Of a stretch of 64,000 nucleotides of DNA, positions 5,381 to 59,756 are shown piece by piece. Positions within the stretch are counted from its first letter, which is position 1. Each line of letters opens with the position of its first letter. The stretch is from Raillietiella orientalis. Taxonomy: Eukaryota. The DNA is taken from contig JAYWIR010000013.1 in NCBI GenBank assembly GCA_036172245.1, positions 1,364,001 through 1,428,000 of the forward strand, read 5' to 3'. Both the position numbers and the translations under genes were made by a program. The notes under the pieces are model-generated. The model saw only the letters and a program-made list of their open reading frames with translations. It was not told the origin of the DNA and made no database searches.

Positions 5381-9682
<4,302 letters not shown>

Positions 9683-12716: not shown

Positions 12717-14671
12717 CTAAGGCACTATCCTAGCAAAAGACGGATTTCCATGCCAAAGTGCTTGCAACTCTCTCCTCCACCCTCCCACGGAAACAGCAGC
12801 AAACAGCACACATGGCACAATGTATAACAGTGCAGGCTGTGCACTATCCATCAATTCCATTGCCAGGAAAGTTATTGCTAATCCCAATGCATATGCTATA
12901 GAAAACATTAAGTGGCTTATGACATCATAAGTAAACATTACCAATAAGCTGCGTCCAGTAATACAGCATGTAGGGAACTTGCAGAATCATATCAAAACTA
13001 AACATGTAGGACACAAGCAAACCAGGTAACACAACATCACCAAAACCTAGCATGTTGAATTTGGGGTAACAAAAATCCAGGGCTCGCAATTCAGGAATTT
13101 TAAAAACAAGTGGCAACATTTCTTTTGTACCACCACCAGTGGCCACATCTCCCATAATACTGGATCCACCCAAAAATAATGGAGTAATAAATACAAAAAA
13201 AACATCATAGAATAAAAGCAACACAAGCAAAACTGTGCAAATACGTAAAGAGGGCAGTCGAATGCTATGCATCATGTAGCAGCTAAAAAAGAATTAGATA
13301 GTGCCAGTCTACATACTCCTCACCAAAGACAAAATCCCAACACATTTTGCAATATCCAAGACCAATCAGCATGACGAAATACAAACCATGTGCTAATTGT
13401 GGATCCTGCACAGATTATAAGAATTATGTCAATCACAGTCACATGGATCCTCTCAGTTGCAGAGTTCTGAAGCCTGGATACAGGGGACCGGAAACTGAAA
13501 CAGCTGAGGGCAAGTGAACAAACTTATGAAATGTACTTATCCCTACTTGCAATCAGGTACTCTAAGAACATTCAATAATGCCTTCCCACAACTGTACAAG
13601 CTAATTAAACAAGCCAGTCCAAATAGAGCTAAAACAATGAATACTGGATTGGAAGCAATATAATGAAATGACATTCTGTGTTAAGCTTACCAAGATATGA
13701 ATAAAAATAATGCAATAATATAAGAAATACACAAAGAATGATGAACCACCATACAGGCAACCAGATTCCAACTGGGATAGATTCTAGAGGCTGAGTTTTC
13801 TCTTCAGTTCTCCCTTCAGTCAACATTGCTTGCTGCTGCACTTTTTTATGACTAATATATGTCATGTGATTCAGTTATGATGCAACAAAATAAATCATAT
13901 ACATTTCATATCTAGTTGAAGCACTCCAATAGCTGCCTACAGCTATAGTGGCAATGGCAAGAACAAAAATGATGATTAGATTTGGATCAAGTGTCTGATC
14001 AAAAACTAGTGAATATTGTGAAACCACTATTTCATTTTTTAGACTCTACATAAAGAATTGTAAATTAATTGAGAAAAAAGGACGAAATTTAAAATTCTTA
14101 CCCTCACAGCCAACCAGTCAGAGTACAGTATTATTGATACACTGATGTTGGTAGTAATGCTGCAACTAAAATGCTGTTTCCCTGCAAGAGAGACTAACAA
14201 TATGCCAGAACCATTCATTCCCTATTCAGTGTAAGAGAATTTAACAATCTGAAATAGTGCCATTTGTTTACTTGCACATGAACCGCCTTTTCCTTTATAC
14301 AACATGGCCCACTTCCATCAACAGCAATCAAGTTTCCAGAAATTCCATGATAAGAACCATTTAAGCTTGAACATGCATCCCATTCGGTATGAACTGCCAG
14401 CTTACTTGTAACCTACAAAACATATGAAGAACACAAAAAGAACTTCACAAATCTAAATAGCTAAACAACAGGCAGTTAGTAAATAATATACACTTCACAT
14501 CCAATTAATACATACAGCTGACTCTTCAGGTGGTAATTGATACACTTCAGGCACATAAAGGATGCATTTCTTGACAGAGTGCGTTCCATTATCAGCTCTC
14601 AAGACTCCGAGCCTATATTCTAACAATTGGACACCTGTCCACAAACATGATATAATGAATATAATTTTCAT
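12717..14671 (-). CDS. SPPL2: Signal peptide peptidase-like 2 (SPPL2A/B family GxGD aspartyl protease); exons 14671-14516, 14412-14272, 14221-14102, 14045-13903, 13851-13691, 13643-13547, 13494-13324, 13282-12942, 12895-12717 (possible extra exon 12687-12550)
   Basis: N-terminal signal peptide (MKIIFIISCLWTGVQLL), PA-domain-like segment (GPCCIKEKAVHVQ), DPNLIIIFVLAIATIAVGSYWS, WILQNVLG, catalytic LFYDVFFVF and LGFGDVVLPG, and QPALLY. GT-AG introns, with phases closing correctly. Confidence 0.96.
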
Positions 14672-15399
14672 TTTCGAAAATGTCTTATTTGGCTGCTTGT
14701 GCTTGAAGATGTCACATTTCTCCCTTAACTCAAATTAGGTGACTTAAATTTCTCCTTTCAATTTATCTTTTCTGACCTTAAATAAAACACAACACTGCAA
14801 AAATAATGAACTACTGATAAGAAATTGGCTGATTATTGTTGATGAACATGATAATCACATTCTATGAAACATGCAAACAAAACACTTGAAAATTTTTGTT
14901 TTTGATGCAGTACATGCATTTTGTCAAATACCTTATCCAAATAGTACAGAGTGTGGGCAATCCAAATAAGACAATTCCATCTTTATTATCATTTTTTTTT
15001 TTGTCCCCACTAATTTCCTTCCAAAGAGAAATTATTTCCGGCTACCCTCTTGCAGGGCACAAATATGAAATTTAATACTACAATGCAATTCTATGGGAAT
15101 CTCGCTGATTATTTCTGCAGGTGCAATTCAATGAGCATGTAAATAAAGTTACGGACATGCACTTCATCCTTGGGAAAACTACACGAAACAATTCTACACT
15201 ACGGTGGCTCAATATGGCAAACGCGAGCAGAAAGGGCAAATACAAATGCTTAACGCGTGACAAACAAAAATATGAGCGTAGTTTTTTTTTTTTTTTTTTA
15301 CTGCTGCTTTGAGGAGAATGTTCGATTTGCTTTTTCTATTTTTGTCCGTCTGATACGTTCAAACATCAAATGCAAGAACGCTGGCACCTCGGAGAACGC

Positions 15400-41240: not shown

Positions 41241-43960
41241 ATGACGTGCAATGACCTGGAGCCAGGAGAGATGTTTGTCAGCGTGGGGCTGCTGGTGCTG
41301 GAGCAGCGCATGCGCGACGGCGAAGCCGGGGGCTGCGTCGAGGGTCCCCACTGCCCTCAGCTGCACGCCAACTCCATCACCTACAAGGCGCACGACTGCG
41401 ACCCCGGCAGCTTCCCGGTAGGCGCCGCGCTTCCGTTTCCCTGGTGACTACGCGCGCCGTCGTGTCTGTCCCCTTGCAGTGCCAGCGCTTCTACAACTGG
41501 CAGAAGTACATGCTGCTGCTGTGGCGCAACAGCGTGCCCATGTCCATCGAGGTACTGCAGTGCCCCGACTGCCACCACGGCACCGAGAAGGTGAGCGCTG
41601 CGGAGGCTGGCGCAGTGCCAGACTCTGCGCACCTGCTGCTGGAGCAGTGGACAGTGCAGAGCACGAACAGATGGTGAGTCTCCGCGCGCGAGAGGGGAAG
41701 GGTGGGTATGCATGGATAGAGGAGGATGGGACGCTGAAGGAGAGGGGGAGGGAGCGGGATGCGCGTCCCCGGTGTGTTTGGTAAGGTGGGCGTGCGGAAG
41801 GTTAGGAGGGCGAAAGTGGGTGATGAATGGTGCAGCTGATGTGAAATAGGGTGTTGGGAGTAAGTGGAAGGTGGTGCAGGCGTAGAGTAGGGGGTGAGGT
41901 AGATAGAGATGGAATGGATGGGCAATACGCGTTGGTGAGAGGGCAGGACGAGGTGGGGTTGGGTGAACGTGGAAATGGATGGGTGTCGTAGGGGCAGATG
42001 GAAAGTGGGTTTGGGGTAATGGAGAGAACGGAATGGAGAGTAAGGTAGGAATGACCGAGTTGTGCGATCACCGTTATCTTTTCTGACGAAAGCCGCTGGC
42101 AGCTGTTTATTTCCATCCCATCCCTCTCTCCTTTGCAGTCCGCGTACGACCTCGGAGAAGCAGGAGGTGCCCATCCTGGGACTGCTGCAGGCTGTGCGCT
42201 CCTTCCTGCACTTCTCGCAGCTTCGTGCATGGTGGAAAGCCAGTGGCGGCCGCCGCCCAGCCAACGTCCTCTTTCGTCTGTCCGTCCCCGGGGACAACTT
42301 CTGCACTCAATTCGCCTCTCCCGCGGAGGACCACGTGTTCCCACTGGCCTGCGTCACCCGCTCGGAGGCCCTCCGGGTCAGCGTCAAGTCCCTGCCTCGC
42401 CGCTATCGGCTTGCCCCGGAGGTTTCCTGCGCTGCTCCAGGCTGCTCAGGGGTGGTGCAAGGCGACGACGGACGCCTTCCGGAAAAGCCACTGCCCAGGT
42501 GAGAGCGAGGCTTTTCCCGCATCCCCTCCGTCTCTATCGCATTTCTTCCCTCACAGAGAAAAGGATCTGCGAGTGCGCCTCGCCCGAGTCAGTCTCCGCC
42601 GAGACTTTCTTCTGGGGGAGGGGCTGATCGATCCTCCGCCCAACCTCGAAAAGTACCCCAAGCGCTACCAGAGCCCGTCCCGCGGCGGCTCGCCCTCCAG
42701 GGAGGTGCCCGAGCGCCTGCTTTTCGGCACTGGGGGCGAGGGGGCGCGCGATGCTCCGGCCTCGTCGGTTCCAGTGGAGTTCGCTCCTCCTCATTTCCCA
42801 GATGGGAGGGGGAGGAGGAGCCCCGATATCGATGCCGGCGCCACGACCCGGGACGAATGCTCCCCGACGCCTGCGGATGCTCCCGCGGCGGAGGACGTTC
42901 GTCCCGAGTGCCGCCGATGCCTCCCCTCGTCAGGAGCAGGCAAGAGCGGGGCACAGGAGCCCCTGCTGTCCAGGAGTCGCTCGGAGCGGTGCTTCGTCCC
43001 GGGCGGCGCCGCGCACCTGCGCCACTCCCTGGCAGGCGGCGACGCAGCGTTCCACCGATCCACCGGCCTTCCGCTGACCTCAAGCCCCGCCCCTGTCCGC
43101 CGGGGCGGCGCCTGTGCCGGTGCCTTCCACTTCGACAATTCTCTCACCTCCACAGAGGCCATCCGCAGGTACATACGAGAAACGCAGGGGGGAAGGGGGG
43201 GAGCGGCGGATTCGGAAGCGGACGACGACGACCGGCTGCTTTCCACAGTGCCCTCTTCCGTGAGCCCCACCACCACGACCAAGACGAAGATGATGATGAG
43301 GAAGTCCGACCCTCTCTCCATGCTCCACCACAGCTGAGTTGCTCTGCGCCCGCCGCTGGACTGCTGGGTACCTTCGAGGAGTCTGTGCTTAATGGGCGTC
43401 TGCCTCCCACGAGCACTGTCGAGGGCTTCAGTGCGGACATAGGTGCCTCTGGAGAGTTCTGCCCTCGCCACATGCGCCTGCCCGTGACTGTCTTCTTCTA
43501 TTCGCTGCTGCCCGACTGTGACCGCACTGGGGGCGGCGGCTCGTCCCCATACCTTGCCCATGTGGGTCTTGGCCCCCGAGGCTACCGCGTGCCTCCCCGC
43601 GGCACCCTCCAGGTGACGCTCTTCAACCCGCACAGGACGGTGGTCAAGATGTTCGTGGTTGCTTACGACCTTGCCGATATGCCCCCCCAGTCAACCACCT
43701 TCCTCCGGCAGCGCACCCTGTACATGCCCGTGAGCGCCTCCGAGCACCATCCAGACGCGCGGCAGTGGTTGCGCTACCTCATCCACCTACGTTTCTGCAG
43801 CTCACGCACCGGACGCGTCTCCCTGCGCGCTGACATCCGGATGATCGTCTTCCAGAAGTGCGACGCCGATGTCGCCACCCTCCTGGACCATGCTAAGCCC
43901 TACGAACTGCGCTCCTTTGTCAACTTCCCGGACAAGCCCAGGTACTCCCCCCTCAAATGA
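41241..43960 (+). CDS. Atos: Atos/FAM214 family protein (Atossa homolog), about 684 aa; exons 41241-41417, 41480-41673, 42139-42498, 42557-43168, 43249-43960
   Basis: Motifs EGPHCP, LLLWRNSVPMSIEV, LLLEQW, LLQAVRSFLHFSQL, FHRSTGLPLTSSPAP, LLGTFEESVLNGRL, EGFSADIGASGEFCP, GTLQVTLFNPHRTVVKMFVVAYDLADMP, TFLRQRT, LRYLIHLRF and the end PRYSPLK*. GT-AG introns with closing phases. An acceptor at 41229 implies a further upstream exon that was not located. Confidence 0.95.
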
Positions 43961-44777: not shown

Positions 44778-45290
44778 TCAAACACCGCTGGGTTCACCCT
44801 TCTTGTTCTCAGTCTGTTCCTCGCAATCGCAGAATTCCATGGTCTGCCACGACTGCTCCACGATCGTGGCCACCCGCTTCTCGTACTCGCGTCTGTTTTC
44901 CTGGTACAGTTGAGCTGCCAAAGAGTTGGCTGGAGAATTGGGGTTGGGAGAATCCAGAAGCGATTGGATAGACGTCAGAATGGCAGCGACGTCGTACGTA
45001 GGACTCCAGCGATTCTGGAGGATATCCAGGCATATCCCACCATCAGCGTAGACGTTGGGGTGGAACATCTTGGACAGGAAACGCACTACAGGGGGCTTGT
45101 GAGGATAATCTTCGTTGAACTCCATGATAAGTTTGAAGGTTCCTCCTTCGAAAGGCGTGTCTTCGGGACCAAATATAATAGCATTCCACCTCATTATGTT
45201 GTCCTCCATGGGGGCTCCACTCACACCAATTGGGGGTCCTTGCTTAAGAAGTTTGAAATCACGAAGCAGTCTACGCTGAGCATTGGACAT
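44778..45290 (-). CDS. Rad6: Ubiquitin-conjugating enzyme E2, Rad6/UBE2A/B family, intronless, 170 aa
   Basis: [13 protein letters not shown]...GVSGAP...[18 protein letters not shown]...[27 protein letters not shown]...[26 protein letters not shown]. The catalytic Cys is intact. ATG at 45290 (the ORF track start at 45296 is a TTG). Confidence 0.97.
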
Positions 45291-45580
45291 GTTCAACCGA
45301 GTAACCCTCGATGTTCTAACAGAAAATTTTCTGTAATTAAATAAATAAAACGATTACGTCAACTCTGGCTCTACTGCTCGGATGTTATCACACTAACACT
45401 TTTATGGAACAACTAGACTTTGACACATGCGAATCATTCTTTCCTTCGTCAAAGAAGAGCTGAAACGATGAATGCCAGGTGGTACCAAGGACAGTGACTG
45501 ACTACACTTCTCCCACCTTTTTAAACATTTTTTTTTCGCTTGTCGTTCTAAATTTTTTTTTTTTCAAAAAAAAACTCGCT

Positions 45581-47974
45581 TCATCTGAAATTTATACGGA
45601 GTCGCTTTTTATCCAGTGGTCGCAATAACTCCATGCCATCCATATAGGGACGCAAAGGGGCTGGAATAACGATACTCCCATCCTCCTGCTGATGGGTTTC
45701 AAGAAGTGCAATAAGCATTCTGGGAACAGCACAGGCTGTGGCATTCAAGGTATGCGGGAATGATTCGCCTGAACCACAAGTGAGAACAATAGGCAAACGT
45801 CTACTTTGGTAGTCAGTACAATTGCTGGCTGAACTGATTTCACCAAACAAACCACACCCAGGCATGTACGCCTCGATGTCGACTTTCTGGTAGGCTGCAT
45901 TGCCTAATTCATGTGCTGGCATGTCAAGAACACGACCAAAGAGTCCCAACGAAGCGAAAAATTCTTTCTGCAACCTCACCAAGTACTCAAAAACAGTACA
46001 ACTATCCTTAGGCGGAGTCAGTGCAAACATCTCAACTTTATAGAATTGATGAACACGATAAATGCTCTTCTCTTCCCGTGTTGAAGACACTTCTGCACGG
46101 AAACATCGTGAAAAGGCAGCTAGAAACTTCGGCAAATCACTCTCAACCCATTGCTGGGCTTGACAAAAACTTGCCAGTCCCATTTCTGCTGTTCCTGATA
46201 AGCAGGAATTTCCAAACATCTCAGGATCTAACCAATATACCTGAAAAAGAATATGTAAAATGCTTGAACACTAAATAGCTCGCAATAGTAAGTACACACT
46301 CCAGAAAAATAGGGTTGGCGAGCAATGCAGCTGACACAACAGCAGCAAAAGTACATATCTATGTAACATATGCAAAAAAACACGCTGCAAAACTGCTTAG
46401 TTAGGTCAAACCTATGACCTGCTTCATCATTAAATGGGCTTTTGGAGGAGATACCACAAACCAATCAGCATTATGACCAGCACTTTTTATGCACATTTAA
46501 GAAACCTATCACAACTTCTTTTGATAAGATTTGTCGTGTGTCAGATACACAGCAACCTCTTGCTAAGCATTCAACAAGCAGAAGCACCAAGTTCCCTAAG
46601 CAGGGTGAATATTTGCCGAATGAGCTTTTTGAAATGCCTACGTGCAATTTTCAAGATTTTTTTTCCCTCTGTGCTGGAGTGCCCCAACTATTTTCTAGAA
46701 ACCACGATGAATGCATTTTAAAAACAACATATCTGGGTAACTGCACGCATTTCTATTAAAGAACTCACATTCCCACTTATCTACCATATCAGCCAACTAC
46801 TACCTGCACAGCATGTCTTTCCATAAGTTTAGAAAAAAACTGACTCTTGCATTTAGATTTATTCACAACTTCCAACTGCATGTATCTAAGATCCACATCT
46901 GAATTTAACCTGTCAATGCAACTAATTCCTAATCCTATTGAAATAATGTTCACTCTGGAGAGAATTATTGAATTCCTGCATTAAAGGGTTCCCCCAAAGC
47001 CAGAACGCTATTCATGTACTGGTGATGTTGGAGGACGAACTAAAGAGAGTCATTTCAAAATCCACTTATTCTGCAAGATTTTTCAAACTGAAACTACTAA
47101 ATTTGATTCTCATGGAGTAGCTAGCTCTTCATTCTATTGTATGCAACAACATAGCTTTTGTATTTGACTCATATTCGAATTTCCACTCTGAGGAGCTAGA
47201 AACACTTCTGTACATTGCATGCAGCATAAATACTCGAAATCCTACACCTGCTCATTTTCACAGCTGCCAGCATGAAAAATGCACAATTCTTAGAAGGAAA
47301 AGACTGTAATTGCAAAATTTCCACATCATGACGCTGTCCTTACTCACCTGTGTACGATGGCTACTAGTACTCATACCACAACTCTCCAGAATTTCGGGAG
47401 TAACTATATCTGGGACAGATACCAAGCAAAATTTACGTGCTTGTAAAAACTGCACAGCATATTGAATGAGTGCCCATTCTAAATGAGCCAAGAGTCCCAG
47501 CAAATAATAGCTGCGCCTCCCAGTAAAATGGCCTATTTTCTTTGTACGCAGTCCTTCAAGAAAGGATGCCAGAAGTTCAAAAGGGCGTGGAGTGAAAGAA
47601 AAACTCTTTTGTTGCCCAAAACATTGAAGCAAATGCGAATCCTTCCCATATTCCAAGGTCTGAAAAACAGTCATGCATTCAATCACTGAAAACCTAAATT
47701 ATACCCTGGGATGGATTCTGTTGGGAAAGGAGGCACAATAATTGTAGAATGTCTGATATGAATCAGAAGCTACATTTTGAAATTTCAGCTGACTCCACAA
47801 ATGGTTCAATTGCTCCAGACTTACTGGGCTTTGCCGAGCTTGAATATTTTTCTGGATGTCAACTGCATTCTGAGAATCCAGCAAGTAATCAACATCCAAG
47901 TAATGCAACCGCTGATGCACACTTCGTGCAACTTTGGCACAGCAAAACACTTTGCGACAAATAAGAGGCTTCTG
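45581..47974 (-). CDS. SARS2: Mitochondrial seryl-tRNA synthetase; exons 47974-47705, 47659-47348, 46240-45581; initiator AUG not found
   Basis: FPNRIHP, GHFTGRRSYYL, LEWALIQY, SVPDIV, CLSGTAEMGLA, SRCFRAE (motif 2), IYRVHQFYKVEMF, ELGNAAYQKVDIEAYMPG, GEISSASNCTDYQSRRL, HTLNATACAVPRMLIALLETHQ, IPAPLRPYM. GT-AG phase-0 introns of 45 and 1107 nt. Confidence 0.95.
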
Positions 47975-48035
47975 CTACAAAAACAAAAAGAAAAAAAAAA
48001 GAGAATCATTTTTTTTCAGCATAACGACGAACTCC

Positions 48036-50066
48036 CTATTCCCAATTTCCCCTCTGTTGCTTTTGCACATCTACAAAGTCTTGCAGTGTTGCATGGTCCA
48101 CAGGAATGTGCACCATTTCCATGCCATCAAGAGCCTTGCGCATGCGCAGCAACTTATGATCACAGAATTCAATCAACTGAGCTCTAAGAGTGAGTTCTGA
48201 GTTGACTAGGAAGGCCTCCCGGCAGATTTCATAAAACACAGCCAAACTTATTCCTAGGAAGATAACATTCTGGCATGCCTGTCACCAGCAACACATACCT
48301 GATTTCATATCTGGTTGTAGGAGCTGCTGCTCAGCCAACAACAGAAATATTTTTTGAGCATTCGGAGTTAAAGAGGGGAGTACATGGTCCAACGATGAAA
48401 TAAACAAGGACGTTTTACATGACGCTAATACAGAATCTTCAAATTCTAGTTCAGATGTATATGGAAAGAATGATGTCACATCATAGAAAACAGGCTGCAG
48501 AAGATGATACTTATGAACATCCCACACTAAAATTATAAATCAATCAGTTTCATAGCAACAAATGGAGAATTGTGTTTAAGGTAAATTGAGCCTTTTTGCA
48601 TCACCAAAAGCAGAGTTGCATGCATTACTGCACACTTTACAATTAGATGTTATGCAAAACAAACAATCAGTTTTTGGAATCATCACAAATTGCATTATTG
48701 GCTGTAGTCATGAGTATAATACAAAAGTAATTCAATTAGATACTATGAGGAATGCCTTTTCAAAAACTGAAGCTGACCTTCTACAAACATGTAATGTTGA
48801 ATGAAACAACCATCAACTCTATTCCCATGATTACCACTCACACATATTTCTAGATCAGATGATCAGATGAAAGAACCTATTATTTGCAGTCATGTACAAG
48901 ATATTTTCATTAATGTTGTACACATGATTACACATAACTGATGAGAGAAAAATTACCTACCACAGATGAGAAGAAAATTATGTGCTACAGAGAATGGTAT
49001 GGTACTTACACAAAAATGCATTCACATGGTCCAGGCTTGCTACTAAGTGAACCCTCTCACACTGAACAAGAGAACAAAGGAATTGCTGTATTCTATCATT
49101 TCGCAAAGCCTGACCATCAATATTATGAATAATTAAAAAAAAATGAGACTTCAATGAATTAAAGGTTTCCATGATATAATCCAGTTGCATTTGCAAACTA
49201 GCAAATCGTTCATCACAATCCAAAACCTTTTGCGTAATCGCATCTAGGAGCTAAAATTAAATGATTTTTAACAATGAATAACATTTCATGCTCTAACCTC
49301 TTTTAATGATATACTAGGGATAAAGCCATGGATTACAAAGTGGGTATAACTTTTTAGATACTGAGTACAAAAACGATCTATTATGCACTTTTTGGATCCA
49401 AAACCATATAAAAATACACTGAATTGCTCTCTAGTTATTACAATAAATGCAAAAGAAAATAAAAATAAAAACAAAATAAATAACATGAACTGAAGGTTCT
49501 CATTTCATTACTTTAGTAAAAGGATCCAATGAGGAAACAACATTTCATGTTCTCGCATCAATTTGGATTTTTCTTTCCAGTGGGTGATTCGTTGTTGTTT
49601 TTGACAATCAATAACAAGATCTGATTGCAACTCTGATGCTGTAAACTTTGGAAACAAATGTTTTGATGTTTTCTTATGACTCTTTTGCCAAAAGCTTGGA
49701 CAACTGCCATCATAATTTTCATCTTTCTTATTATCATTATTTTTTTTTTCAATTTATACATTAACCTAGAAAAGCATATACTTACCTTACATTCATATTC
49801 CAAAACTGTACTTGAAGAACCCAAAGCACTGAGAAATTCTGAAATAAAATAAGCACACACAGCATTAAATTATCCACAGTTCTCATCTTACCTCTACCAA
49901 AACCTTCATCCTCATCAACACTTTCATGAGATGACATACCACTCCAGCTATCTTCTGAGTTATCAGAAGATGAAGTGGACAAACAGGAGTGCAATGCTTC
50001 ATCTGTTTCCTCTTTGTGTTCTGCACTTCCATTTATTATTAATTCATTAGAATCTAGAATTTCCAT
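48036..50066 (-). CDS. ORC2: Origin recognition complex subunit 2, about 7 exons; the junction near 49720-49790 is ambiguous
   Basis: LFPHWILLL, FSVFLYGFGSKK, VIHGFIPSISLKE, FLIIHNIDGQALR, HLVASLDHVNA, YDVTSFFPYTSEL, LDHVLPSLTPNAQKIF, CREAFLVNSELTLRAQLIEFCDHKL, preceded by an acidic low-complexity N-terminus. Confidence 0.95.
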
Positions 50067-53000
50067 AATTGAATTTTAAAAAGTGAATTTATTCCAGCAC
50101 GTAAGTATTCTTGCTTGAATGTAAAATGCATGAAGTTGGCTTTTAAAAACTAGGAATCGGTGCAAAAGTCAAAATGCTCGAACGTTACGCTTTTAAGCGA
50201 TGAATGGTGCATCACCAGTTAGAAATACTGTTTATAGATTTTGCTTGCTACGTTGTTTGGATGCAAATTTCTAATTTAGCATGTTTTGTAGTCACTTTCA
50301 AACTACTTTCGATGTTTAATACGGCTATTCGTGTGTCATAAGCATTATTGTTGTGGTTATTTTTTGGTTTCATATTAAGTACATGTTCTGCAAATACGTA
50401 ACTCACGATAATAATTCTAAATTAAACTACACACCTGGTTTCAACCTTTTTCTTAGATTGTAAGGCATTTTTATGGCTTCAGTTTGTACCGACTGCTAAT
50501 GAGTTAATGTAGTTCAGCGTGCCTCGATTTCAACAAAGAATCCTCACCCAGTGCACTAGATTGAACTCAGATGCAAGGCGTCCTTAGATATTTCTCACTT
50601 ATATTCTCAAGAAAATAAACAAAACAAAAATCACATGCCGCCGCTTCCTTGCGACATGAACCAGCATGCACTTTCCGTTCGGGCAGCGGCAAACTGTAAT
50701 TTAGGACGCATGTTTTCAATCTTTAGATGTAAAATCTCAATTCCCCTTCTTTGTTTCTTTCACCAGTTTACTGTGACTGTGAAACAAAACTGGTTGGAAG
50801 GAAGATAACTGCGAAGGCTTAACTTATAAAATACCGAATCTCAAAACTAGACCACGAACTACGAGACTGCCTACGAATTATGACTTCCAGCTCAATATAG
50901 AGCTCATTGAATTCTGGATGAAAAAAAAAGAAAACCAGCATGACAACAAGGTTCTACATCTCCTATACCTTTGCCAATATCAAATAGTAAAGTTGCTAAT
51001 TAATGTTAAATGTCCATTATAGATTTTAACAAATCTTGGTCATAGATCAAACGCAAACTGCACAGCAGAAACGTAATTACATATATAAGTGAAATAAAAA
51101 AGAGCTTCCCCGATTAATCAAAACGTGAAATTGAAAAAAACTTTTTTTTCAAGTCTCACTGCATTTGACACTCTTTCGATTCCCAATCCGTTCTCTTAAG
51201 GAACATAAAATATTGGTTAACTTAAGGATGTACCCTAGCTAGAAAACAGTTGTTTCTATTGGTAAACTCAGTATCCAAATACAAAAAAAAATATGCTTGA
51301 GACACGTAGCATCACTCATCTCTAAGGATTTTAAATCTAACAACAAGAGAATCTTTCTTAATATTATGGGAAATACTTGGTACAAACATTATGGGAAAGT
51401 AATATAGTATTCAGACAGGAATTTTCCATACCAAGACCTTCAAACAATGTTGAAGGTCACGGAAAGCAAAATTCCATGTGAACTGAAATACAAAAGATAT
51501 CTTTTTATTTGCTCGTTCGTTCTGGACCCTATAATCTATTTGGAACCTTATTGTTTACTATCTCTGTTTCTTTTCTGGACTCGTTTTGTGTACCAATTAT
51601 CAAAAGCATAAAAGTGAACATCAGAAAAACTTGGAATTTCACTAAAGATCCCAGTGATTCATCTGATGAAAAAAAGTCAGCAAATAAAACAAGAGAATAT
51701 AACAAGAAATATCTAAAAACTTAAAATGAAATCCTTCACTCTAAAACAAAAAAAAATGCTGATGTCATCGCGGATTTCTATGAACTCTTTGAAGGTTCAA
51801 GATCGGATATTTCTCTTACATCTAATCAAAACATTGTATCTCGAATGAGCTCTGTGATATAAAGGTTTTTGCCCCTTCAAAGCTTTGGCTTCTTAAGTAT
51901 CTTGAAAAAATACACATGAATGAAATCAAAATTTCCCCATCAGAAGGTTCCCTCTTTAAAAGTTTGACCGCCTTCAAAATTCACATCATTGCAAAGTATG
52001 GTTTTCAAAACTTCCAGCTATATTTGATTCCAGGAACGTTCTTTCAGGAACGACTTTTTCAAAAACGAACTATATTTTATTCCCAGAGCATAAATTCTTA
52101 GATGTGTACATCACCTGATTGCAGAATACTGCTAGGAAAAAACACTAATGCTCCATATAGTAGTCTCGGAAATTTTTGGCGTCTTTTCTACTGTTTAATG
52201 GTACATTAAACATGAACACACGAAACTAGATAGAAAATTATCTTTTAAAAAAAAAAATACACGTGATAAGAAAAATAGAAGATTTGTAAAGTACGTCCAA
52301 CAGGTAAAAGATACCATCTTGGATAATATTATAGTATAGAAAAAGTATTGCTCAGGCTCAAGAAATAATCTTTCTATCAAGAATAGAGATGTTTTTTGTA
52401 ATTTACAATAGCAAACATCAATTTGACTTGATATTCAAATCGTCTGCTCAACTGGTACCGACTACTAGAACAGTTATCAGTGCTAACTCAGTAGAGATTA
52501 ATTTGTGTTCAATGTTAAGTTTGGTTATGCTAATGGATGGATGGGCTGACTCTGGAAGCAAACTCGCTTGATACTCAACGTGATGAATACAACAGAAGAT
52601 AATGGAGAATGACATGGCTGAAAGATATGGAAGAAAATATCTCAGTAGTTCCTATCCAAAGGGAATAGTGAAGAGAATCTGACTCCTTATATCATGGGAA
52701 AGTTACTGTTATTAAAAAGAAAAATAAAGTCATTTCCGTCATTTATATAAAAGCAAAGTAAAAGACAGCAAGTCTAGATGAGATGCTGTCCTTCTAAAGG
52801 AATCCTTAGGTGTTAAGGGGTGCTCACAATATAAACCTGCTTTCAACTGCTACTTCATTGCAATTGCTTTTCCAAAGAGCACTCACTGTTTAATTTTCAA
52901 TATGGAACATATCAATTGCGGAACTAGGGTGTGAAGAGACATAGTTTTTCAAACTCCATTTGTCTTGAGTATGATGCAACTAATAAGCGGTAATCGTTTT

Positions 53001-54129
53001 GAAGAATTTCAAGAACTTCAAGATGTTTTAATGAATTTTTCAGAGTTCTCTGGGTTTGGGCTCAGTAGATGTCAGAAGCCGTCTCAAAAAGGCAATGTTT
53101 TGAAAGATTTCAAAATGTGTTTGGAATCACATTTGAAATCCCTGGAAAGAGTGCTGAAGAAGTTAGGCTTCACTTGCAATTCGAAGAGTATATATAAGCA
53201 AAAATGGTATGCAACTAGGTGGGTTACTGAACAACGAAGATTTTTGCGAAGAAAATCTTTGGTAGTACATCAAAGTGAAAACCAAGTAGTATGCGCGTTT
53301 CAAGAGTTATTAAGAATGTGAGTCGGGTTCCTGAATTACTAATGGAAGTTTCCAGTGGACACACTTATTAAGGGACTGGTACAGTATCATACCAAGTAGA
53401 TAGTCTGATCTCTTAATAAAATAGCAATGAGACAATAAAAGATTGAAACATATATCTGTGGTCGTCTGTAGGTATGTAATGGATAAAAAAGACGTATTCA
53501 TTATTTACACCTATATATCAGTCTTCAATGGAACTAACTTGTGCTTTATTGCTATTCATCTTCCAAACTAATACTGGGCATGTTATTCCACCCGAAAATC
53601 AACTGATACTTTGCGTTCTTTTGAATGCTGAAGATACAGTGTATATTTTCTGAAAATGCTTCAATTCATAACAGATGAAAATTCTTCTTTTGGAACAAAT
53701 ATTAGACTTTAAAAATATTCCTCCACTCAAGTAAACACGATAAATCTTTGCTTGCTAACTTGACTGGATTAGTGAAACGTGTATGACCATGAATCATAAT
53801 CGGTAATGGTAATAGTTCGAATTCAACGTTACTGAAGGTGATAAGCAAATTAATGGCCCAAATCGATTCTATATAAACGTTTAGAAAGCATAAACAATCA
53901 GAAATTAATAATTCGTCGGTGTTTTATATTATCAGGTATTTACACTCATGAACATGAAAATTTATTAAAAGTACAAACTTTTGTATGTGTCGGAAACGCA
54001 AAACCTGTACGCTTATTGAATTTGATTAATGAATATTAGACAGAAGTGCAAATACAACGCCACCGAATTTACAAATAACGTACTATAGAGTACCGTAAAC
54101 TTATTGTCTGGTGAAATCCTACTCAATGT

Positions 54130-55955
54130 CTCACTGAATAAAACTACAATTGCAAATTTTCATTTCAAACAATGTATTTGAAGAAATTGAAGTTTTAAAA
54201 AACCGCAAAATTAATGGACCAGAAAATGAAGTAAGCATAGAGTTTTTATTGAAGAAACTATACTCAAAGTCGCCGCACCATGGAAGTGTTTCAATAGAAT
54301 GAAACACACTATATAGATCACTCTTTCTGCGTAGCAAGAAACATAATATCACTGAAAAGAAAGAGATGCAACCTCGGCATCAGGCAGTAATGTACGTTTC
54401 CAAAGGGTTTTGTGCAGCTCATTTTAAAAAACCGTCACAGGTCGAAGCTTGCGTCTGGATAAAGAAATTGCCCTACCTGAGTTGCTGAGCAAGGAAAACT
54501 TTAAAATAAGTTTGGAAGCAAAAAGCTGTGAACCTATATTTAGGGATGTCTTTAATGATACTGATGGGAACTTAAACCTTGAGAACTTGAGAACTTGAGA
54601 ACCCCACACGAAGGTCCACATGGAAGTCTAAGATGATAGGATGAAGGAGACACGTTTTTAATCTTTGAAGGATTGCATGCAAAACTGAAAATTGAAAAAA
54701 AGGGACATTAAACTGACAGGGCTTGTGTGAAGGAAAATTTTTTAAAATGTTGGCGCGCATGTGCAATCTGCATTGACATGAAATATGAACTCTTTTGATG
54801 TGAAAAACCGAGGCTAAATTGACAGTACTTGAAAAGAAATGAACCTAATGTTCTAGTATTCTTTCATTTTTTTTTTCCATTTCGTACAGATGAAACCCCT
54901 TTGGTAGATTTGCTTCATCCAGAATAGTGTGGATTTCTTTTTCTTCTCTCAATAAATAAATAAGAATTCATGAAATGAAATACTTTTTCAGTTAACAAAA
55001 AAGGACTATTTCAGAGATACGCGAAACAGAAGATATAATGAAGTCAGAATAAATTTTCAGCCAATGAATATTCAGATTTGAGTAGTTTTCATGTAATTTT
55101 TTCAAGGGGAAGTACAGAATATAAGATCTTTAAAATGATGGACTTAAAAGAAAGTTATAGATTTTCCCGGGAGCAAATAAAACACAATTAAGTTCGAGTA
55201 TACAAAGATTCTAGCTATAGCATTTTGTGGAAAGCATCACAAAATATCAAAATCGTATTGATCAGTCTGATGGTAGAAGAACAATTCATGTCTTAATCAT
55301 TAAGTAGAATGAAACTAGCATTGAACATTGCAAACAAGAAATGGAAACTGTAGCTCTTCGTTTTTCTCATATTGGTCCATTTCACACACACTCCGTAGTT
55401 CAAAGTGATGGATTCTTTTTCTCAATATTTTGACTACACACTAAAAGTGAAAAAACAACATGCACTGATGATGCAGACGTCACACCGATCACATAGAGAC
55501 TTTCAAAGTGGCTTAAACAAATGCAAGCCACTTTAAGGGCATTGTATGCTATTAGGTATTTTATTATCCGATGCTTCACTAAATCGAGTTCAATTATACG
55601 AAGCTTTTCTCATAACTCTGCAGTTTAATTTTTGTATATGTTCATCTCGTGTTTCTTATTCTGCAATCAATGAAGATTGTTTTCTTAAAAACTGAAATTG
55701 ACACTGTGAAGGAAGTCAATATAGAATCAACGAACTGACACGCAACAGAAACCTTAGACTTAGTGTCGTATAGTCCGAACTCAACCTAACAGTCCTTTAT
55801 CTCCTTTTGTATTCCAATCTTTCATCTTATGCAGAGTTGAAATCTAAATTCTCGAATATTCATGAGAAGTTAAAGAACCTTGAAAAAGGAGCTTAAAAAA
55901 ACTGTGATGCAATAATAGGAAACACAAAGGAACAACAACACTTAGCACGTTGAAA
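54130..55955 (+). pseudogene. Possible decayed gene remnant (K/E/L-rich, coiled-coil-like fragments interrupted by stops)
   Basis: Fragments such as VFEEIEVLKNRKINGPENE, ITKYQNRIDQ, EHCKQEMETVALR and LKSKFSNIHEKLKNLEKGA* lie on one strand with some splice-like borders. No family recognised. Confidence 0.2.
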
Positions 55956-58549
55956 TAATCCGTAGGTGTTGATAATTGCTGGTTCCACTGAAAATTCATC
56001 AATGACAAATGAGGAATGCCATTCTTGAAAAATAATTTGGATGGAGGGAATTCATGCAGACACTCAGAACAAATCGATATGGAATATTTTTCCGTGGGAA
56101 CCTTAAAATTCTTGGTAAAATTTCATGAATGCAGAATATATCAGTCTGAGAAAAAAGATACAAGCAATGACTTTCAGTAGCAGTACTCGCATTGATAAAT
56201 AAAATATAGGTTGCTACAATATTCTGAACCTTGGTATTGAGCTTATTCACTTGTAAATTACTTAAGATTTCGTCGGCAAATACGTTATTTTAAATTCTGA
56301 ACGGCTGTTGGCATGTTAGTAATTAGCAGTATTATAGTTTGTGTGCTATGATAACTGAATTGTATGTATTGGAACTCTGTATTCTAAAATGGGCGTTTCC
56401 AACTATTGTAATATGTGCTTAGAAACCATCTAATTTACAGCGGGTTGTTTACTGCTAAGCCGTACGATGATTAAGTTGAAATCATTTGCATGACAAGCCG
56501 AAGTGCGTTTTCTATCACAAGGCGAAGCGTTGAAGTTACTCGCATGCCTTCCTGGGTGACACGGAAAAGGAACAAAAGGGAGCAGAAGCCTTTGAAAAGA
56601 ATTGAAGGAGGATGGAGTATTAAGTGGTAATTGTAAGCCAACGCCCGCTGTAACAAGGGTTCTTTGTAATCACATCAACTTGATGAGTACGACTGCTGGT
56701 ATCATTTTGGGCAATGGTGACACTTCTCGTATTCGTTGTTTTGAAGCTTGAGGTGAATTTTGGACCTGCTAAAAAGAAAAGAAAAAAAAAAAACAGCGGA
56801 TGGGACGAAAGCACAAATCATTGTTCGGATGCTCTAAAATTCTCAGGAATATGGAATTCGATTGAGTGATGGAGCCTTTTCACGATATTCATTCATGTGT
56901 ATTCATGAGACATATTGGTAGTTAATGCCAAAATAAGACTGCAAGAAAGTATTTTCATGAATGGTTCTTAAATTTGGAAGATTAAAATAATAACCTTTCA
57001 ATATAACTTTGTGAATTTAGTCTATAATTATGAAACAGAAGTCACCATAATGCATAATGCAGAAGTATCATTGATTTTGGTAGAGAACTTGATCATGTTG
57101 GTAGGTATGGAATTCTAACAAAAATCTCCCTCATTTTGTGGATAGGTGATCGGCGATGTTGCTACACTTGTGGTCTAATGAGTTGAATGAACATTCACCT
57201 GCGAACACTAATAAAATAACTACGTACTTTTAAGCATCTTTAAAAAACTGCTACAGTATTTTGAAGGTACTAAACAAATAATAACTTAATTTTTCGCACA
57301 ATAAATGGGCATGGTCAGTTGCTAAAGGTGGAATAGCACAGTGGGTGGACTACATGGTGTATTTTTTTTTTTTGAAGTTAAACAAAGTCAGTTTGTGGTT
57401 TGGCAAACTAAGTTGCAACCACAACTGCTTGCAAGTACACTTGGATTGTCATCCAAATATTTGGAGAATCACATTGGGAGCTTCAATCCTTTAGCCATGA
57501 TTAGTTTATATTTTTCACTCTGTGTGTCTTACAAAATGTTACTGAGTTCTGATTAGAAGTCATTTTGGAAATTTCATTAATATTTCATTCATACAGCTCT
57601 TGCAAGTAATATCCATGAATTTCCTAGTATGTCATTTCTAAGTGATTACCATGACCAAATTTTATGCACTTGTTGAACAGATTTCTATATACCAAGCAAC
57701 AGCAGCCCTAAGTGTTTTCCTGGAATGCTATGTGGTGCACCATCCATGATCTGAGGGATTTTGCTTCCAAAATCTCTCAGATTAGCTTTTCTGTACTTCA
57801 AAATAGGATGAAACCTGGGAATATGTGATTGATCATTTATGACATTGAGTAGCCCTTTAAACAGAACTGCCTACAAAATTTGCTTTATCAATTATTTCTT
57901 CCACTGTAACAATATTGGACACATTTTTCCAACAAACTATATAAGCTTGCAGATGATACTATTAATGAATTTATTCCAGGAACATAATCACTCTTTGTAT
58001 CACATTTTCTAAGGATTACAACAGACGTGCAAATAATAGCAAAATACAGATAGTATGAACAATCAGATACAAAGTACACACAGTACAATCCTAAGAATAT
58101 GCCTAAAAATTGTAACATGAAACCACCAAACACCAGCAATAAAAAAAAAAATTTTTTAGTTATAAAAAGTTTTTGAAGTGTTTATCGTCTTCATGTTCTC
58201 GTAAATTACAGAACAACTGTATGTAAAAGGCATTGTATAAAAAAATTCTGGAATCAGATTTTCATCCTATGCAATTGAAAATTGCCATCCATTTCATTAG
58301 ATTATCCATCAAACTCCCATTCTGTTGAAACATTCAGAGTTAAGTGCAATTTATAATAAGAAAACTTTTATTGTGATGAACAAAAATTTGCAAAATACAC
58401 CTCTGATAGTTTAAATATTCAATCTTATCATCCTAACATAAACATTTATTAGCTCTGATAAGCATGCATATCTGATAATTTCTTATTTAAGATTGCATTG
58501 GATGATGTACTGTGTGTACTACTTTGGCAGCCACTCTTTGACATTAGTT

Positions 58550-59756
58550 CAGTCTTTCCTGCAGCCAATCTGTTTGTTTTGAAGGTATAATCTATTTCAA
58601 TTTTTGATAATCTTACCTGGAAGTGGAATCATTAGCGGTACCTGCTAAACTTGGAAAATACTCTTCAGAGAAAACAAATGGTGCTGCTTTGCCTCTGTGT
58701 CTGGAACCTAAGCAGCAATTTAAAGTTAAAGTACAGTACTTGTTTAGAACTACCTGTAAATGGTTTTTGCTTCATGTGAGGAGGTACATATTTGCCACCA
58801 ACAACAGGTGGCTCAGGAGCAGGAATCTCAGGTTCAGGAGTAACTTCTAGAAAAGCTCATAATTACAACACAAAAATATACTTTAAACTCCTGCATTTCT
58901 ACAATTTCCAGAAGACCAGCAGAGAATTATCATGGCATGCCAATGTGATTCCAAAGATTATAAAATCAAGAAACCATATTGTATATAGCACAAAACAAGT
59001 AGCTGTCAACAGATTAAGCTTCCCAAAATCAAAATTAAAAATAATTATCCACAGAATCCAATCAAATTGGAGATATTAATACCATTCTATCTAAATGTAC
59101 TATACTGTTCACCAGAATTACGTGAAAACATACTTAAAATATGAGGTACAAAATAAAGTGAGCTGCACTTTGGAATTGTAATTATGCCAATGCACTTAAT
59201 AAAGTGCACTTTTAATGCTATTTTTATTTACTTTATTACTTACTAGGTTGCTCTATCTCCTGTTGTGGAGTTATGCTTATCCTGTTCCATGGACCAGAAT
59301 GGGCTTTGTCACTTTTATCTTCCTGGTCCTCCTCATTTGAGATAATAGCACCGTTCTCATCATCATTATTATCCTTTAGTTTCAGCTGCTGAATTTTCAA
59401 GCCAGAATAATCTTTTTCCTTTTCATCTTCAAAGTCGGCCCAGCCTTCCTCCTCCTATGAAAGCTAAGTAAATAAAAGGAATTGGGACACACTATCCTTA
59501 AGATAACGTAATGTTTGGAGATTGGTTATCTATATATGAGCACAATAACTACAAACTGCATCCCAATGAACTCAAGAGGGAATACCTCAAGATTTACTTC
59601 TGTTTTTAAAGTCAAATTAGCATGTTTATCTTTCTTAATATTTTTATCAGATCTTTTGTTATCCTCTTCTAGATTTTTGGCAAGCACATCATATGTTGTA
59701 AACTTTTTATTTTTTTTCTTATCTTTTTTAGCAAAGAAACTATCTAGATCTGCCAT
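58550..59756 (-). CDS. CDV3: CDV3 homolog (about 5 exons; 3' end approximate)
   Basis: MADLDSFFAKKDKKK from ATG 59756; exon about 59454-59245 EEEGWADFEDEKEKDYSGLKIQQL...SGPWN; exon about 58846-58755 GKYVPPHMK; exon about 58707-58617 APFVFSEEYFPSL. These are all CDV3-family motifs. Confidence 0.9.

What the first reader, a model, noticed from the sequence alone, without database searches (positions are those of the whole stretch)
47705..48115. Mitochondrial SerRS has no usable start codon: AUG must be spliced in from a leader or from inside ORC2
Seen on the minus strand: ORC2 stop TAG (48038-48036), then ggagttcgtcgttatgctgaaaaaaaatgattctc(t-rich)gtag|CAG AAG CCT... The first SARS2 exon (90 codons) contains no Met. 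The acceptor TAG is an in-frame stop that blocks the in-frame ATG at 48022, and homopolymer miscounts cannot fix this. The exon begins QKPLICRKVFCCAKVARSVHQRLHY, basic and acid-free like a mitochondrial presequence lacking only its Met, in phase 0. Established: flatworm spliced leaders end in AUG and can supply the initiator. Inferred alternatives: (a) an AUG-donating trans-spliced leader, which I do not know of in arthropods; (b) an overlapping first exon in a shifted frame of the ORC2 last exon (MCKSNRGEIGNREF(V), weak donors gtcgtt/gttatg); (c) an ORC2-SARS2 fusion via in-frame donors ATG|gtgcac or TTT|gtagat; (d) non-AUG initiation at GTG 47950.
Basis: partly seen in the sequence, partly recalled or inferred. 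Interest (0 to 1): 0.8.

Follow-up and report, generated by a model that had tools for sequence, protein, structure and literature searches.

The report
Start-less SerRS exon abutting ORC2
The first recognisable exon of a mitochondrial seryl-tRNA synthetase gene really has no start codon and opens at a splice acceptor only 61 bases after the neighbouring ORC2 gene stops, so its AUG must be spliced on from elsewhere: most likely an ordinary upstream exon, less likely a trans-spliced leader.

Summary
On the minus strand, ORC2 ends at TAG 48038-48036. A 61-nt spacer ends in an unusually long T-rich tract and TAG|CAG. A 90-codon exon without Met (47974-47705) then opens an otherwise intact 413-codon mitochondrial SerRS. 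Only the Met, or a Met plus a few residues, is missing compared with arthropod homologues. Both ATGs in the spacer are unusable. So the AUG must lie on another exon joined at this acceptor.

I could not determine which exon. No genome is held, no RNA run was listed, and exon 1 has no relative in any database I could search. My best reading (about 0.55) is a cis exon from the transcription unit that also carries ORC2, with a shared or internal promoter. A scan found 192 possible ATG...GT exons, and 37 have donors at least as good as a real weak donor here. None stands out.

An AUG-donating spliced leader (about 0.15) fits the operon-like packing, the missing ORC2 poly(A) signal and the long T tract. 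However, published copepod and amphipod leaders do not end in AUG, and only flatworm leaders are known to. The lineage is an unresolved long-branch protostome, so "arthropod" is not shown. Interest is moderate, and the question can be settled with RNA reads.

The parts
48036..48253 (-). ORC2 last exon, with stop TAG at 48038-48036. It encodes the complete winged-helix domain and C-terminus.
   Evidence: Pfam WHD_ORC2 at E 2e-20 on ORF 48039-48281. Acceptor ttcctag|GAATAAG and the stop were read. The upstream ORC2 exons hit RecA-like_ORC2.
47975..48035 (-). 61-nt spacer between the ORC2 stop and the SerRS exon. It has an A-rich stretch, then a roughly 30-nt T-rich tract, then the tandem acceptor TAG|CAG (AG at 47976-47975, second AG at 47973-47972).
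   Evidence: Read. In the pyrimidine-tract ranking, 41 of 8030 AG sites reach its pyrimidine count and 5 of 8030 reach its T count. No AATAAA or ATTAAA lies here; the only AATAAA on this strand between 48300 and 44000 is at 46863.
47975..48022 (-). Dead-end upstream ORF: ATG 48022 is in frame with the exon but is closed by the acceptor's TAG after 15 codons.
   Evidence: Reading and arithmetic (48022-47974 = 48).
47821..48009 (-). ATG 48009 in a different frame. Its 64-codon ORF overlaps exon 1 out of frame. It would act as an upstream ORF on any unspliced leader.
   Evidence: ORF 47821..48015; no Pfam hit.
47705..47974 (-). SerRS exon 1 as recognisable: 90 codons, no Met. It comprises a 25-residue basic, acid-free presequence remnant followed by the N-terminal arm.
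   Evidence: Translation. Alignment A1 to eight homologues. Presequence statistics.
47660..47704 (-). SerRS intron 1, 45 nt, with the weak donor AGG|GTATAA.
   Evidence: Exon ends fixed by homology. Donor score -2.02 on my rough matrix.
47348..47659 (-). SerRS exon 2, 104 codons.
   Evidence: It continues the homologues' sequence through ...SVPD...CGM...RTQ.
45581..46240 (-). SerRS exon 3: 219 codons plus TGA. This is the class II catalytic core.
   Evidence: Pfam tRNA-synt_2b at E 2.2e-26. 51-61% identity to mitochondrial SerRS of many animals.
44778..45290 (-). Intronless UBE2A/RAD6-like gene, 290 nt after the SerRS stop. An acceptor-like ttatttatttaattacag ends at 45331, 40 nt before its ATG.
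   Evidence: Pfam UQ_con at E 7e-51. Coordinates.
49892..50066 (-). ORC2 first coding exon (ATG 50066, donor GAG|GTAAGA at 49891). Its +1 frame (ATG 50032) would be in phase with SerRS exon 1.
   Evidence: The basic alternative frame is a by-product of the acidic ORC2 frame (inference).
50635..50667 (-). Candidate cis start exon: ATG...CAT|GTGATT encoding MLVHVARKRRH, phase 0. It lies in a slightly GC- and CpG-richer patch about 570 nt upstream of the ORC2 ATG.
   Evidence: Scan (donor score 0.54). GC profile. Presequence statistics. This is a candidate only.
48114..48143 (-). Candidate cis start exon inside the ORC2 last exon, in ORC2's own frame: MRKALDGMEM|GTGCAC. It would give a 139-nt intron to the acceptor.
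   Evidence: Scan (donor score -1.21). Reading. This is a candidate only.

Best explanation
Exon 47974-47705 is not the first exon of the mitochondrial SerRS mRNA. The AUG, alone or with up to about 15 codons, sits on a separate upstream exon of the same primary transcript. Ordinary cis-splicing joins it at the strong TAG|CAG acceptor.

ORC2 ends 61 nt upstream on the same strand and has no poly(A) signal of its own before SerRS. That upstream exon must therefore lie inside ORC2 or just upstream of it. On this reading the two genes form one overlapping transcription unit, with either a shared promoter and alternative splicing or an internal promoter in ORC2.

Shown:
- The exon lacks a start codon.
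- The acceptor is strong.
- The gene is otherwise intact.
- Only the extreme N-terminus is missing.

Inferred:
- The join is in cis.
- Which exon supplies the AUG.
For: 1. The spliced model of 413 codons has intact class II motifs. The conserved LDVDYL motif lies 25 residues into exon 1. A motif search places it 30-47 residues into the eight homologues. So one to about twenty residues are missing, which fits a short upstream coding exon at least as well as a bare AUG.
2. The pyrimidine tract plus AG ranks in the top 0.5% of 8030 AG sites, so this is a genuine acceptor.
3. Unspliced use is excluded. The in-frame ATG 48022 is closed by TAG, and ATG 48009 opens an out-of-frame 64-codon ORF.
4. 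Cis candidates exist. The scan found 192 ATG...GT phase-0 combinations in 47978-56000. Of these, 37 have a donor scoring at least as high as the homology-proven weak donor of SerRS intron 1. Several would give basic N-termini.
5. The other four genes whose 5' ends I checked all carry their own ATG: G-alpha-q, signal peptide peptidase, CDV3 and UBE2. Nothing suggests that this genome generally relies on donated AUGs.
6. Known crustacean spliced leaders end in ...AAG, ...GAG or ...CTG, not AUG (PMC4664967 and PMC5111886, passages read).
7. A start codon on its own small exon is commonplace in animal genes (general knowledge).
Against: - No candidate exon stands out.
- The strongest donors upstream are 50434 CAG|GTGTGT, 50547, 49785 and 48298. 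None of them closes a phase-0 ATG ORF.
- The one strong-donor solution is the alternative frame of ORC2 exon 1. It lies downstream of ORC2's own well-placed AUG, and its basic composition follows automatically from the acidic ORC2 frame.
- A same-strand nested or overlapping layout, with ORC2's stop only 61 nt from the host acceptor, is awkward for forming ORC2's 3' end.
- There is no AATAAA or ATTAAA between the ORC2 stop and 46863.
- The T tract is much longer than at the two SerRS cis acceptors I scored (18-22 of 32 pyrimidines against 27).
- About 6 kb with no Pfam hit lies upstream of ORC2, while ORC2, SerRS and UBE2 are packed at 61 nt and 290 nt. That contrast is what an operon would look like.
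Confidence: 0.55

Rival explanations
1. ORC2, SerRS and perhaps UBE2 form an operon. The polycistronic transcript is cut in the 61-nt spacer. A spliced leader whose last three bases are AUG is trans-spliced at TAG|CAG and supplies the initiator Met, as in flatworms.
For: - Same-strand spacing is 61 nt, and 250 nt to the acceptor-like site before UBE2. Both are within the <=250-300 bp used to call operons in chaetognaths and flatworms (PMC12460157 and PMC12582326, passages read).
- No poly(A) hexamer follows ORC2.
- The T tract before the acceptor is exceptional.
- The exon is open in phase 0 from the first base.
- M plus exon 1 gives a 26-residue presequence with 6 K/R and no acidic residue.
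- SL-donated AUGs are established in flatworms, where more than 40 S. mansoni cDNAs need one (PMC9851317 passage, citing Cheng et al. 2006, which I did not read).
- The SerRS sits on a long branch of unresolved protostome position, so a trans-splicing lineage is not excluded.
Against: - No leader, SL RNA gene or trans-spliced read was seen. There were no Rfam hits. The SL-gene-like pattern ATGGT...Sm-site occurs at chance level, 3 against 1.6 expected. Copepod and Parhyale leader motifs are absent.
- The best sequence matches are pancrustacean, and published copepod and amphipod leaders do not end in AUG.
- Only flatworm leaders are reported to carry a 3'-terminal AUG (PMC12582326, PMC9851317).
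- The other genes checked in the window have their own ATGs.
- UBE2 has promoter-like sequence of its own upstream (reading; motif identities recalled).
Confidence: 0.15
2. The true first exon and promoter are missing from this sequence. Either a deletion or collapse occurred in this haplotype or assembly, or this is a recently disabled copy with a functional copy elsewhere in the genome.
For: The 61-nt gap leaves no room for a promoter, a 5' UTR or ORC2's 3' UTR. No genome or reads could be consulted to exclude this.
Against: All 413 codons are open, with conserved catalytic motifs. The strong acceptor immediately in front of the exon is a designed-looking feature, not what a random deletion breakpoint would leave. 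A single-base error cannot create a usable ATG upstream, because of the in-frame TAG.
Confidence: 0.07
3. Translation starts at a near-cognate codon inside exon 1, such as GTG 47950 or 47920 or TTG 47908, on an mRNA whose 5' exon or leader is non-coding.
For: In-frame AAG, ATT, GTG, GTG and TTG codons lie within the first 23 codons. Mitochondrial isoforms of some yeast tRNA synthetases start at non-AUG codons (recalled, not checked here). SL-linked non-AUG starts are reported in nematodes (PMC9851317 passage).
Against: - This would be the only start for an essential enzyme. The next AUG is at codon 186.
- Contexts are poor, with T or C at +4.
- Starting at GTG 47950 leaves a 17-residue presequence with 3 K/R, shorter than in any homologue.
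- It still needs an upstream exon that has no AUG.
Confidence: 0.05
4. SerRS is made only from ORC2 read-through RNA. This could be a fusion through an in-frame donor in the ORC2 last exon (ATG|GTGCAC or TTT|GTAGAT), or the second cistron of a bicistronic mRNA.
For: In-frame donors exist. ORC2 lacks its own poly(A) signal, so read-through RNA is likely to exist.
Against: A fusion would place the presequence behind about 380 ORC2 residues and delete conserved ORC2 C-terminal residues, which is implausible for mitochondrial import. A second cistron without an AUG cannot be reinitiated. The donors are weak (-1.21).
Confidence: 0.05

Closest known systems
Flatworm spliced leader with a 3'-terminal AUG used as initiator (Cheng et al. 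2006, cited in PMC9851317 and PMC12582326; I read passages of the citing papers only)
   Same: A Met-less ORF opens in phase 0 directly at an acceptor. The gene lies close behind an upstream same-strand gene. The product would gain only its Met.
   Different: No leader was observed here. The best protein matches are pancrustacean, not flatworm. Membership is untestable without RNA or the genome.
SL-resolved operons of nematodes, chaetognaths, tunicates and flatworms
   Same: Housekeeping genes lie head to tail at 61 nt and 250-290 nt. A U-rich tract precedes the downstream acceptor.
   Different: No poly(A) signal was found for the upstream gene. The lineage is not known to have operons. SLIDR/SLOPPR (PMC7986045, one passage) states that operons had not been reported in copepods or amphipods.
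Copepod and amphipod spliced leaders (PMC4664967; PMC5111886, citing Douris et al. 2010)
   Same: These are the only arthropod groups with SL trans-splicing in the papers I read. 5' UTRs after the leader are short.
   Different: The listed leaders end in ...AAG...GAG or ...CTG and contain no usable in-frame AUG, so they could not start this ORF. Motif searches in the window were negative.
Loci with a shared 5' exon or a nested gene in the first intron, such as the cholinergic VAChT/ChAT locus (recalled, not checked here)
   Same: One gene lies between another gene's first exon and its first coding acceptor, on the same strand. Alternative splicing chooses the product.
   Different: Here the nested gene would fill the intron to within 61 nt of the acceptor. 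No shared exon has been identified.
Non-AUG initiation of mitochondrial aminoacyl-tRNA synthetase isoforms in yeast (recalled, not checked here)
   Same: It concerns a mitochondrial tRNA synthetase whose presequence lacks an AUG.
   Different: In those cases a downstream AUG makes the cytosolic form. Here there is no AUG for 185 codons, and the gene is a dedicated mitochondrial paralogue.

Membership tests
Mitochondrial seryl-tRNA synthetase (SARS2-type class II aaRS) | Class II core domain with conserved motifs 2 and 3 | tested here: met
   Pfam tRNA-synt_2b at E 2.2e-26. FRAE...YRVHQF.KVEMF and TACAVPRMLIALLETHQ align with the homologues.
Mitochondrial seryl-tRNA synthetase (SARS2-type class II aaRS) | Closest relatives are annotated mitochondrial SerRS, with comparable length | tested here: met
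   Best hits are named "serine--tRNA ligase, mitochondrial" at 51-61% identity over exon 3 and are 420-453 aa in arthropods, against 413 codons here.
Mitochondrial seryl-tRNA synthetase (SARS2-type class II aaRS) | N-terminal mitochondrial presequence starting with Met | tested here: inconclusive
   A 25-residue basic, acid-free stretch is present but has no Met. No targeting predictor was available.
ORC2 | RecA-like ORC2 domain followed by the ORC2 winged-helix domain | tested here: met
   PF04084 on three exons and PF24882 on the last exon.
SL trans-spliced operon | Same-strand genes separated by at most about 250-300 bp | tested here: met
   61 nt between ORC2 and SerRS. 250 nt to the acceptor-like site, and 290 nt to the ATG, between SerRS and UBE2.
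SL trans-spliced operon | A common leader found on the mRNAs of the downstream genes | not testable with these tools
   No RNA run was listed. No genome is held.
SL trans-spliced operon | SL RNA gene (leader, GT donor, Sm site) in the genome | tested here: inconclusive
   Only the 64-kb window could be searched. There were no Rfam hits, and the pattern occurred at chance level.
AUG-donating spliced leader (flatworm type) | Leader ends in AUG directly before its GU donor | not testable with these tools
   No leader is known for this organism.
AUG-donating spliced leader (flatworm type) | Recipient ORF is in phase with the acceptor and has no AUG of its own | tested here: met
   Phase 0 at 47974. 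The first Met is at codon 186.
AUG-donating spliced leader (flatworm type) | Organism belongs to Platyhelminthes | tested here: inconclusive
   The tree places it in a 99/99 protostome group, outside the insect and the annelid+mollusc clades. No flatworm row was included. The best identities are to pancrustaceans.

The most novel reading that the evidence does not exclude
This long-branch, arthropod-like protostome runs an ORC2-SerRS(-UBE2) operon. It resolves the operon with a spliced leader that ends in AUG, and the mitochondrial SerRS depends entirely on that donated AUG. This would be an independent second origin of the flatworm trick, and the first operon with a start-codon-donating leader outside Platyhelminthes.
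Probability: 0.13. Interest if true: 0.8.

Novelty: new member of a known kind. Interest (0 to 1): 0.4.

Why it matters
If the AUG comes from an ordinary upstream exon, this is mainly an annotation trap. Gene finders will truncate SerRS to Met186 or fuse it to ORC2. The locus would then be a tidy example of two housekeeping genes sharing one transcription unit.

If the AUG comes from a spliced leader, it would show that AUG-donating leaders and operons evolved outside flatworms. It would also show that an essential mitochondrial enzyme can depend on trans-splicing for its start codon.

A handful of RNA reads across 47975 would decide between the two.

Tried and rejected
- **Whole genome:** none is held.
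- **Earlier findings of this scan:** nothing for this genome, for its relatives, by sequence or by words. The one item returned, a phage intron, is irrelevant.
- **Rfam on the whole window:** 0 matches at gathering score.
- **Relatives of exon 1:**
  - The word-indexed search for longer proteins gave 9 candidates, none with E <= 10.
  - phmmer against 1.84 billion representatives gave 2 hits with E <= 0.001. Both are long proteins of 771 and 728 aa matched on 28-residue stretches. I did not take them as SerRS and did not examine them further.
  - The metagenome scan matched a pattern in 164 stretches, and 1 passed tblastn. That contig carries bacterial-looking ORFs and shares only LEQLNHLW, so I rejected it.
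- **ESM Atlas:** uninformative for exon 1 (scores 0.90, unnamed clusters) and for exon 3 (generic bacterial tRNA-synt_2b clusters).
- **Exact look-up of the UBE2 protein:** not in the collection.
- **Tandem repeats at score 80 or more:** none.
- **Leader motifs:** the Parhyale and copepod motifs gave only chance-level near-matches. The ATGGT...Sm-like pattern gave 3 against 1.6 expected.
- **Stop-codon readthrough of the acceptor TAG, or TAG read as sense:** considered and rejected. The N-terminus would then be coded by the T tract (FFFF...), and ORC2 itself stops at TAG.
- **Frameshift repair joining ATG 48009 to the exon:** this needs an indel inside exon 1, where the longest run is four bases. 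It would also give a hydrophobic, not presequence-like, N-terminus.
- **Lineage:** I could not identify it.
Full report
**What is there.** I read the minus strand of 47300-48700. The ORC2 reading frame ends ...AAT TGG GAA TAG, with TAG at 48038-48036. Pfam finds the ORC2 winged-helix domain complete in this last exon and the RecA-like ORC2 domain on three exons upstream.

Sixty-one bases follow (48035-47975): ggagttcgtcgttatgctgaaaaaaaatgattctcttttttttttctttttgtttttgtag. Then an open frame starts with CAG AAG CCT at 47974. It runs 90 codons without a Met to AGG|gtataa at 47705/47704.

With a 45-nt intron, a 104-codon exon (47659-47348), a 1107-nt intron and a 219-codon exon ending in TGA (46240-45581), the model gives 413 codons. 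Exon 3 carries the class II core (Pfam tRNA-synt_2b). It is 51-61% identical to proteins named mitochondrial serine--tRNA ligase. In one search, 1107 proteins reached E <= 0.001 among 1332 candidates. In one search, 1521 reached E <= 1e-40 among 8000 scored candidates, with the best 120 listed.

Exon 1 has no Pfam hit, but it aligns with the N-terminal arm of eight arthropod homologues. Identity is 20-31%, I40, R47, P84 and N85 are invariant, and the LDVDYL and PN..HP motifs match.

**The start-codon problem is real.**
- ATG 48022 is in frame (48 nt upstream), but the TAG that forms the acceptor closes it.
- ATG 48009 is in another frame and opens a 64-codon ORF across the exon.
- Any indel in the T runs upstream leaves the TAG in the exon's frame.
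- The first Met of the model is codon 186.
- The conserved LDVDYL motif sits 25 residues into exon 1. A motif search puts it 30-47 residues into eight homologues.

So only the Met, or a Met plus up to about twenty residues, is missing. With a Met added, the presequence would be 26 residues with six K/R and no acidic residue.

**The acceptor.** Of the 32 bases before the AG, 27 are pyrimidines and 24 are T. Among 8030 AG dinucleotides on both strands of the window, 41 reach that pyrimidine count and 5 reach that T count. Those counts include this site and its NAGNAG twin three bases downstream. The two SerRS cis acceptors that I scored have 18 and 22 pyrimidines. This is a strong and unusually long 3' splice signal. 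It is not coding sequence.

**Surroundings.** Downstream on the same strand, 290 nt after the SerRS stop, lies an intronless UBE2A/RAD6-like gene (ATG 45290). An acceptor-like ttatttatttaattacag ends 40 nt before its ATG.

On this strand between 48300 and 44000 the only AATAAA is at 46863, inside SerRS intron 2, and there is no ATTAAA. ORC2 therefore has no canonical poly(A) signal before SerRS begins. The probable ORC2 ATG is at 50066. Upstream of it lie several kb of AT-rich sequence with no Pfam hit. The tight packing of ORC2, SerRS and UBE2 is therefore local, not a property of the whole window.

The other genes whose starts I inspected all have their own ATG:
- G-alpha-q (MACCLSEE...)
- a signal peptide peptidase
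- CDV3 (MADLDSFF...)
- UBE2

**Which organism.** No genome is held and nothing in the window is a taxonomic marker (Rfam: none). I built a maximum-likelihood tree of the spliced SerRS with 30 named homologues. It places the protein inside a 99/99-supported protostome group of 24 rows. It falls outside the supported insect clade (12 rows) and outside the annelid+mollusc clade (4 rows).

Its terminal branch is 2.51 against a median of 0.63. Its best overall identity is 46%, to Daphnia. No flatworm, rotifer, copepod or amphipod row was in that tree, because none was among the 120 listed hits.

**Search for direct evidence.**
- No RNA run was listed.
- Exon 1 has no detectable relative in three searches. 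The word-indexed search gave 9 candidates, none significant. phmmer over 1.84 billion representatives gave 2 weak hits to long proteins that I did not take as SerRS. One metagenome hit proved to be a bacterial-looking contig sharing an eight-residue word.
- The exact UBE2 protein is not in the collection.

No transcript or orthologous locus could therefore be compared.

**Cis candidates.** I scanned the minus strand from 47978 to 56000. I looked for every ATG that runs without a stop to a GT in phase 0, and I scored donors with a rough generic matrix written from memory. There are 192 such combinations. Thirty-seven have a donor at least as good as AGG|GTATAA (-2.02), the homology-proven donor of SerRS intron 1.

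The more interesting ones are these:
- **ATG 50667 ... CAT|GTGATT.** It encodes MLVHVARKRRH. It lies in a slightly GC- and CpG-richer patch about 570 nt upstream of the ORC2 ATG. That patch also holds TTTGCCGC at 50693-50686, which resembles an E2F site (consensus recalled).
- **ATG 48143 ... ATG|GTGCAC.** It encodes MRKALDGMEM, in ORC2's own frame, and would give a 139-nt intron. TCAGTT at 48180-48175 upstream resembles an initiator element (consensus recalled).
- **The +1 frame of ORC2 exon 1 (ATG 50032), using ORC2's own strong donor at 49891.** Its basic composition and openness follow automatically from the acidic GAN-rich ORC2 frame. It also lies behind ORC2's own well-placed AUG.

The strongest other donors upstream (50434, 50547, 49785, 48298) do not close a phase-0 ATG ORF. 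Sequence alone cannot pick the exon.

**The spliced-leader reading.** Its attractions are listed above: spacing, no poly(A) signal, the long T tract, and phase 0 from the first base.

Passages in PMC12582326 and PMC9851317 state that all reported flatworm leaders end in ATG. They also state that more than 40 Schistosoma cDNAs need that AUG (citing Cheng et al. 2006, which I did not read). Operons are called at <=250 bp in a chaetognath (PMC12460157) and <=300 bp in flatworms (PMC12582326).

Against it:
- The calanoid copepod leader and the caligid-type leaders listed in PMC4664967 end in ...GAG or ...AAG.
- The four Parhyale leaders in PMC5111886 end in ...CTG.
- None offers an in-frame AUG.
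- PMC7986045 (one passage) says operons had not been reported in copepods or amphipods.
- A literature search for newer arthropod cases (114 papers held at least 3 of the 4 terms, 25 listed) showed none in the listing.
- Searches of the window for those leader motifs and for an SL-gene-like pattern were at chance level. A 64-kb window would rarely hold an SL gene in any case.

**Weighing.** A donated AUG needs a lineage with trans-splicing and a leader ending in AUG. In the papers I read, only flatworms are reported to have such a leader. A cis exon needs an awkward but known overlapping or nested arrangement. My estimates are:

| Reading | Estimate |
|---|---|
| Cis exon | about 0.55 |
| AUG-donating leader | about 0.15 |
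| Missing first exon in this haplotype or assembly | about 0.07 |
| Non-AUG initiation | about 0.05 |
| Read-through fusion or bicistronic use | about 0.05 |
| Unassigned | the rest |

These are judgements, not computed values.

**Verdict.** The inference that the AUG is spliced on is supported. Its source is open. As it stands this is a new member of a known kind: a gene whose start codon lies on a separate exon, inside a tightly overlapping gene pair. A minority reading would be remarkable. A few RNA reads across 47975 would decide it.

Noticed in passing
window 18000-44000: A block of about 26 kb at 0.44-0.68 GC lies between flanks of 0.32-0.40 GC. Long ORFs are open in all six frames, and none of 78 ORFs scanned hit Pfam. 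The one exception, scanned separately, is the Atos/FAM214-like ORF at 42503-43960 (+), with DUF4210 and Chromosome_seg domains. GC rises stepwise across ORC2, SerRS, UBE2 and Atos.
   Followed up: partly
window 44778-45290 (-): The UBE2A/RAD6-like gene is intronless and more GC-rich than its neighbours. Its tail after the UQ_con domain looks longer than I recall for UBE2A (recalled, not checked). It might be a retrocopy. Its exact sequence is not in the 15-billion-protein collection.
   Followed up: partly
window 47971-47977 (-): The SerRS acceptor is a tandem NAGNAG (TAG|CAG|AAG). Using the second AG would drop one Gln and keep the frame.
   Followed up: no
window 56765-56800 (-): A second very T-rich acceptor of the same form (t12 c tttt c ttttt ag|cag|) ranks with the SerRS acceptor for T content. 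What follows is a short ORF of unknown meaning.
   Followed up: partly
window 5382-9682 (+): A G-alpha-q gene. The first exon encodes [14 protein letters not shown]..., a 2.8-kb first intron follows, and then short introns.
   Followed up: partly
window 12720-14734 (-): A signal peptide peptidase-like gene (Peptidase_A22B on two exons), with an apparent signal peptide exon starting MKIIFIISCLW.
   Followed up: no
window 59243-59747 (-): A CDV3-like gene (Pfam CDV3 at E 7e-14), starting MADLDSFFAKKDKKK. ATCGATA lies about 100 nt upstream and resembles an insect DRE element (consensus recalled).
   Followed up: no
window 45291-45580 (-): The SerRS-UBE2 spacer has no AATAAA. It has only TATAAA and GATAAA just before the SerRS stop, and CATAAA at 45406. 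It also holds tgacgtaa followed by a T/A-rich stretch just before the acceptor-like site.
   Followed up: no
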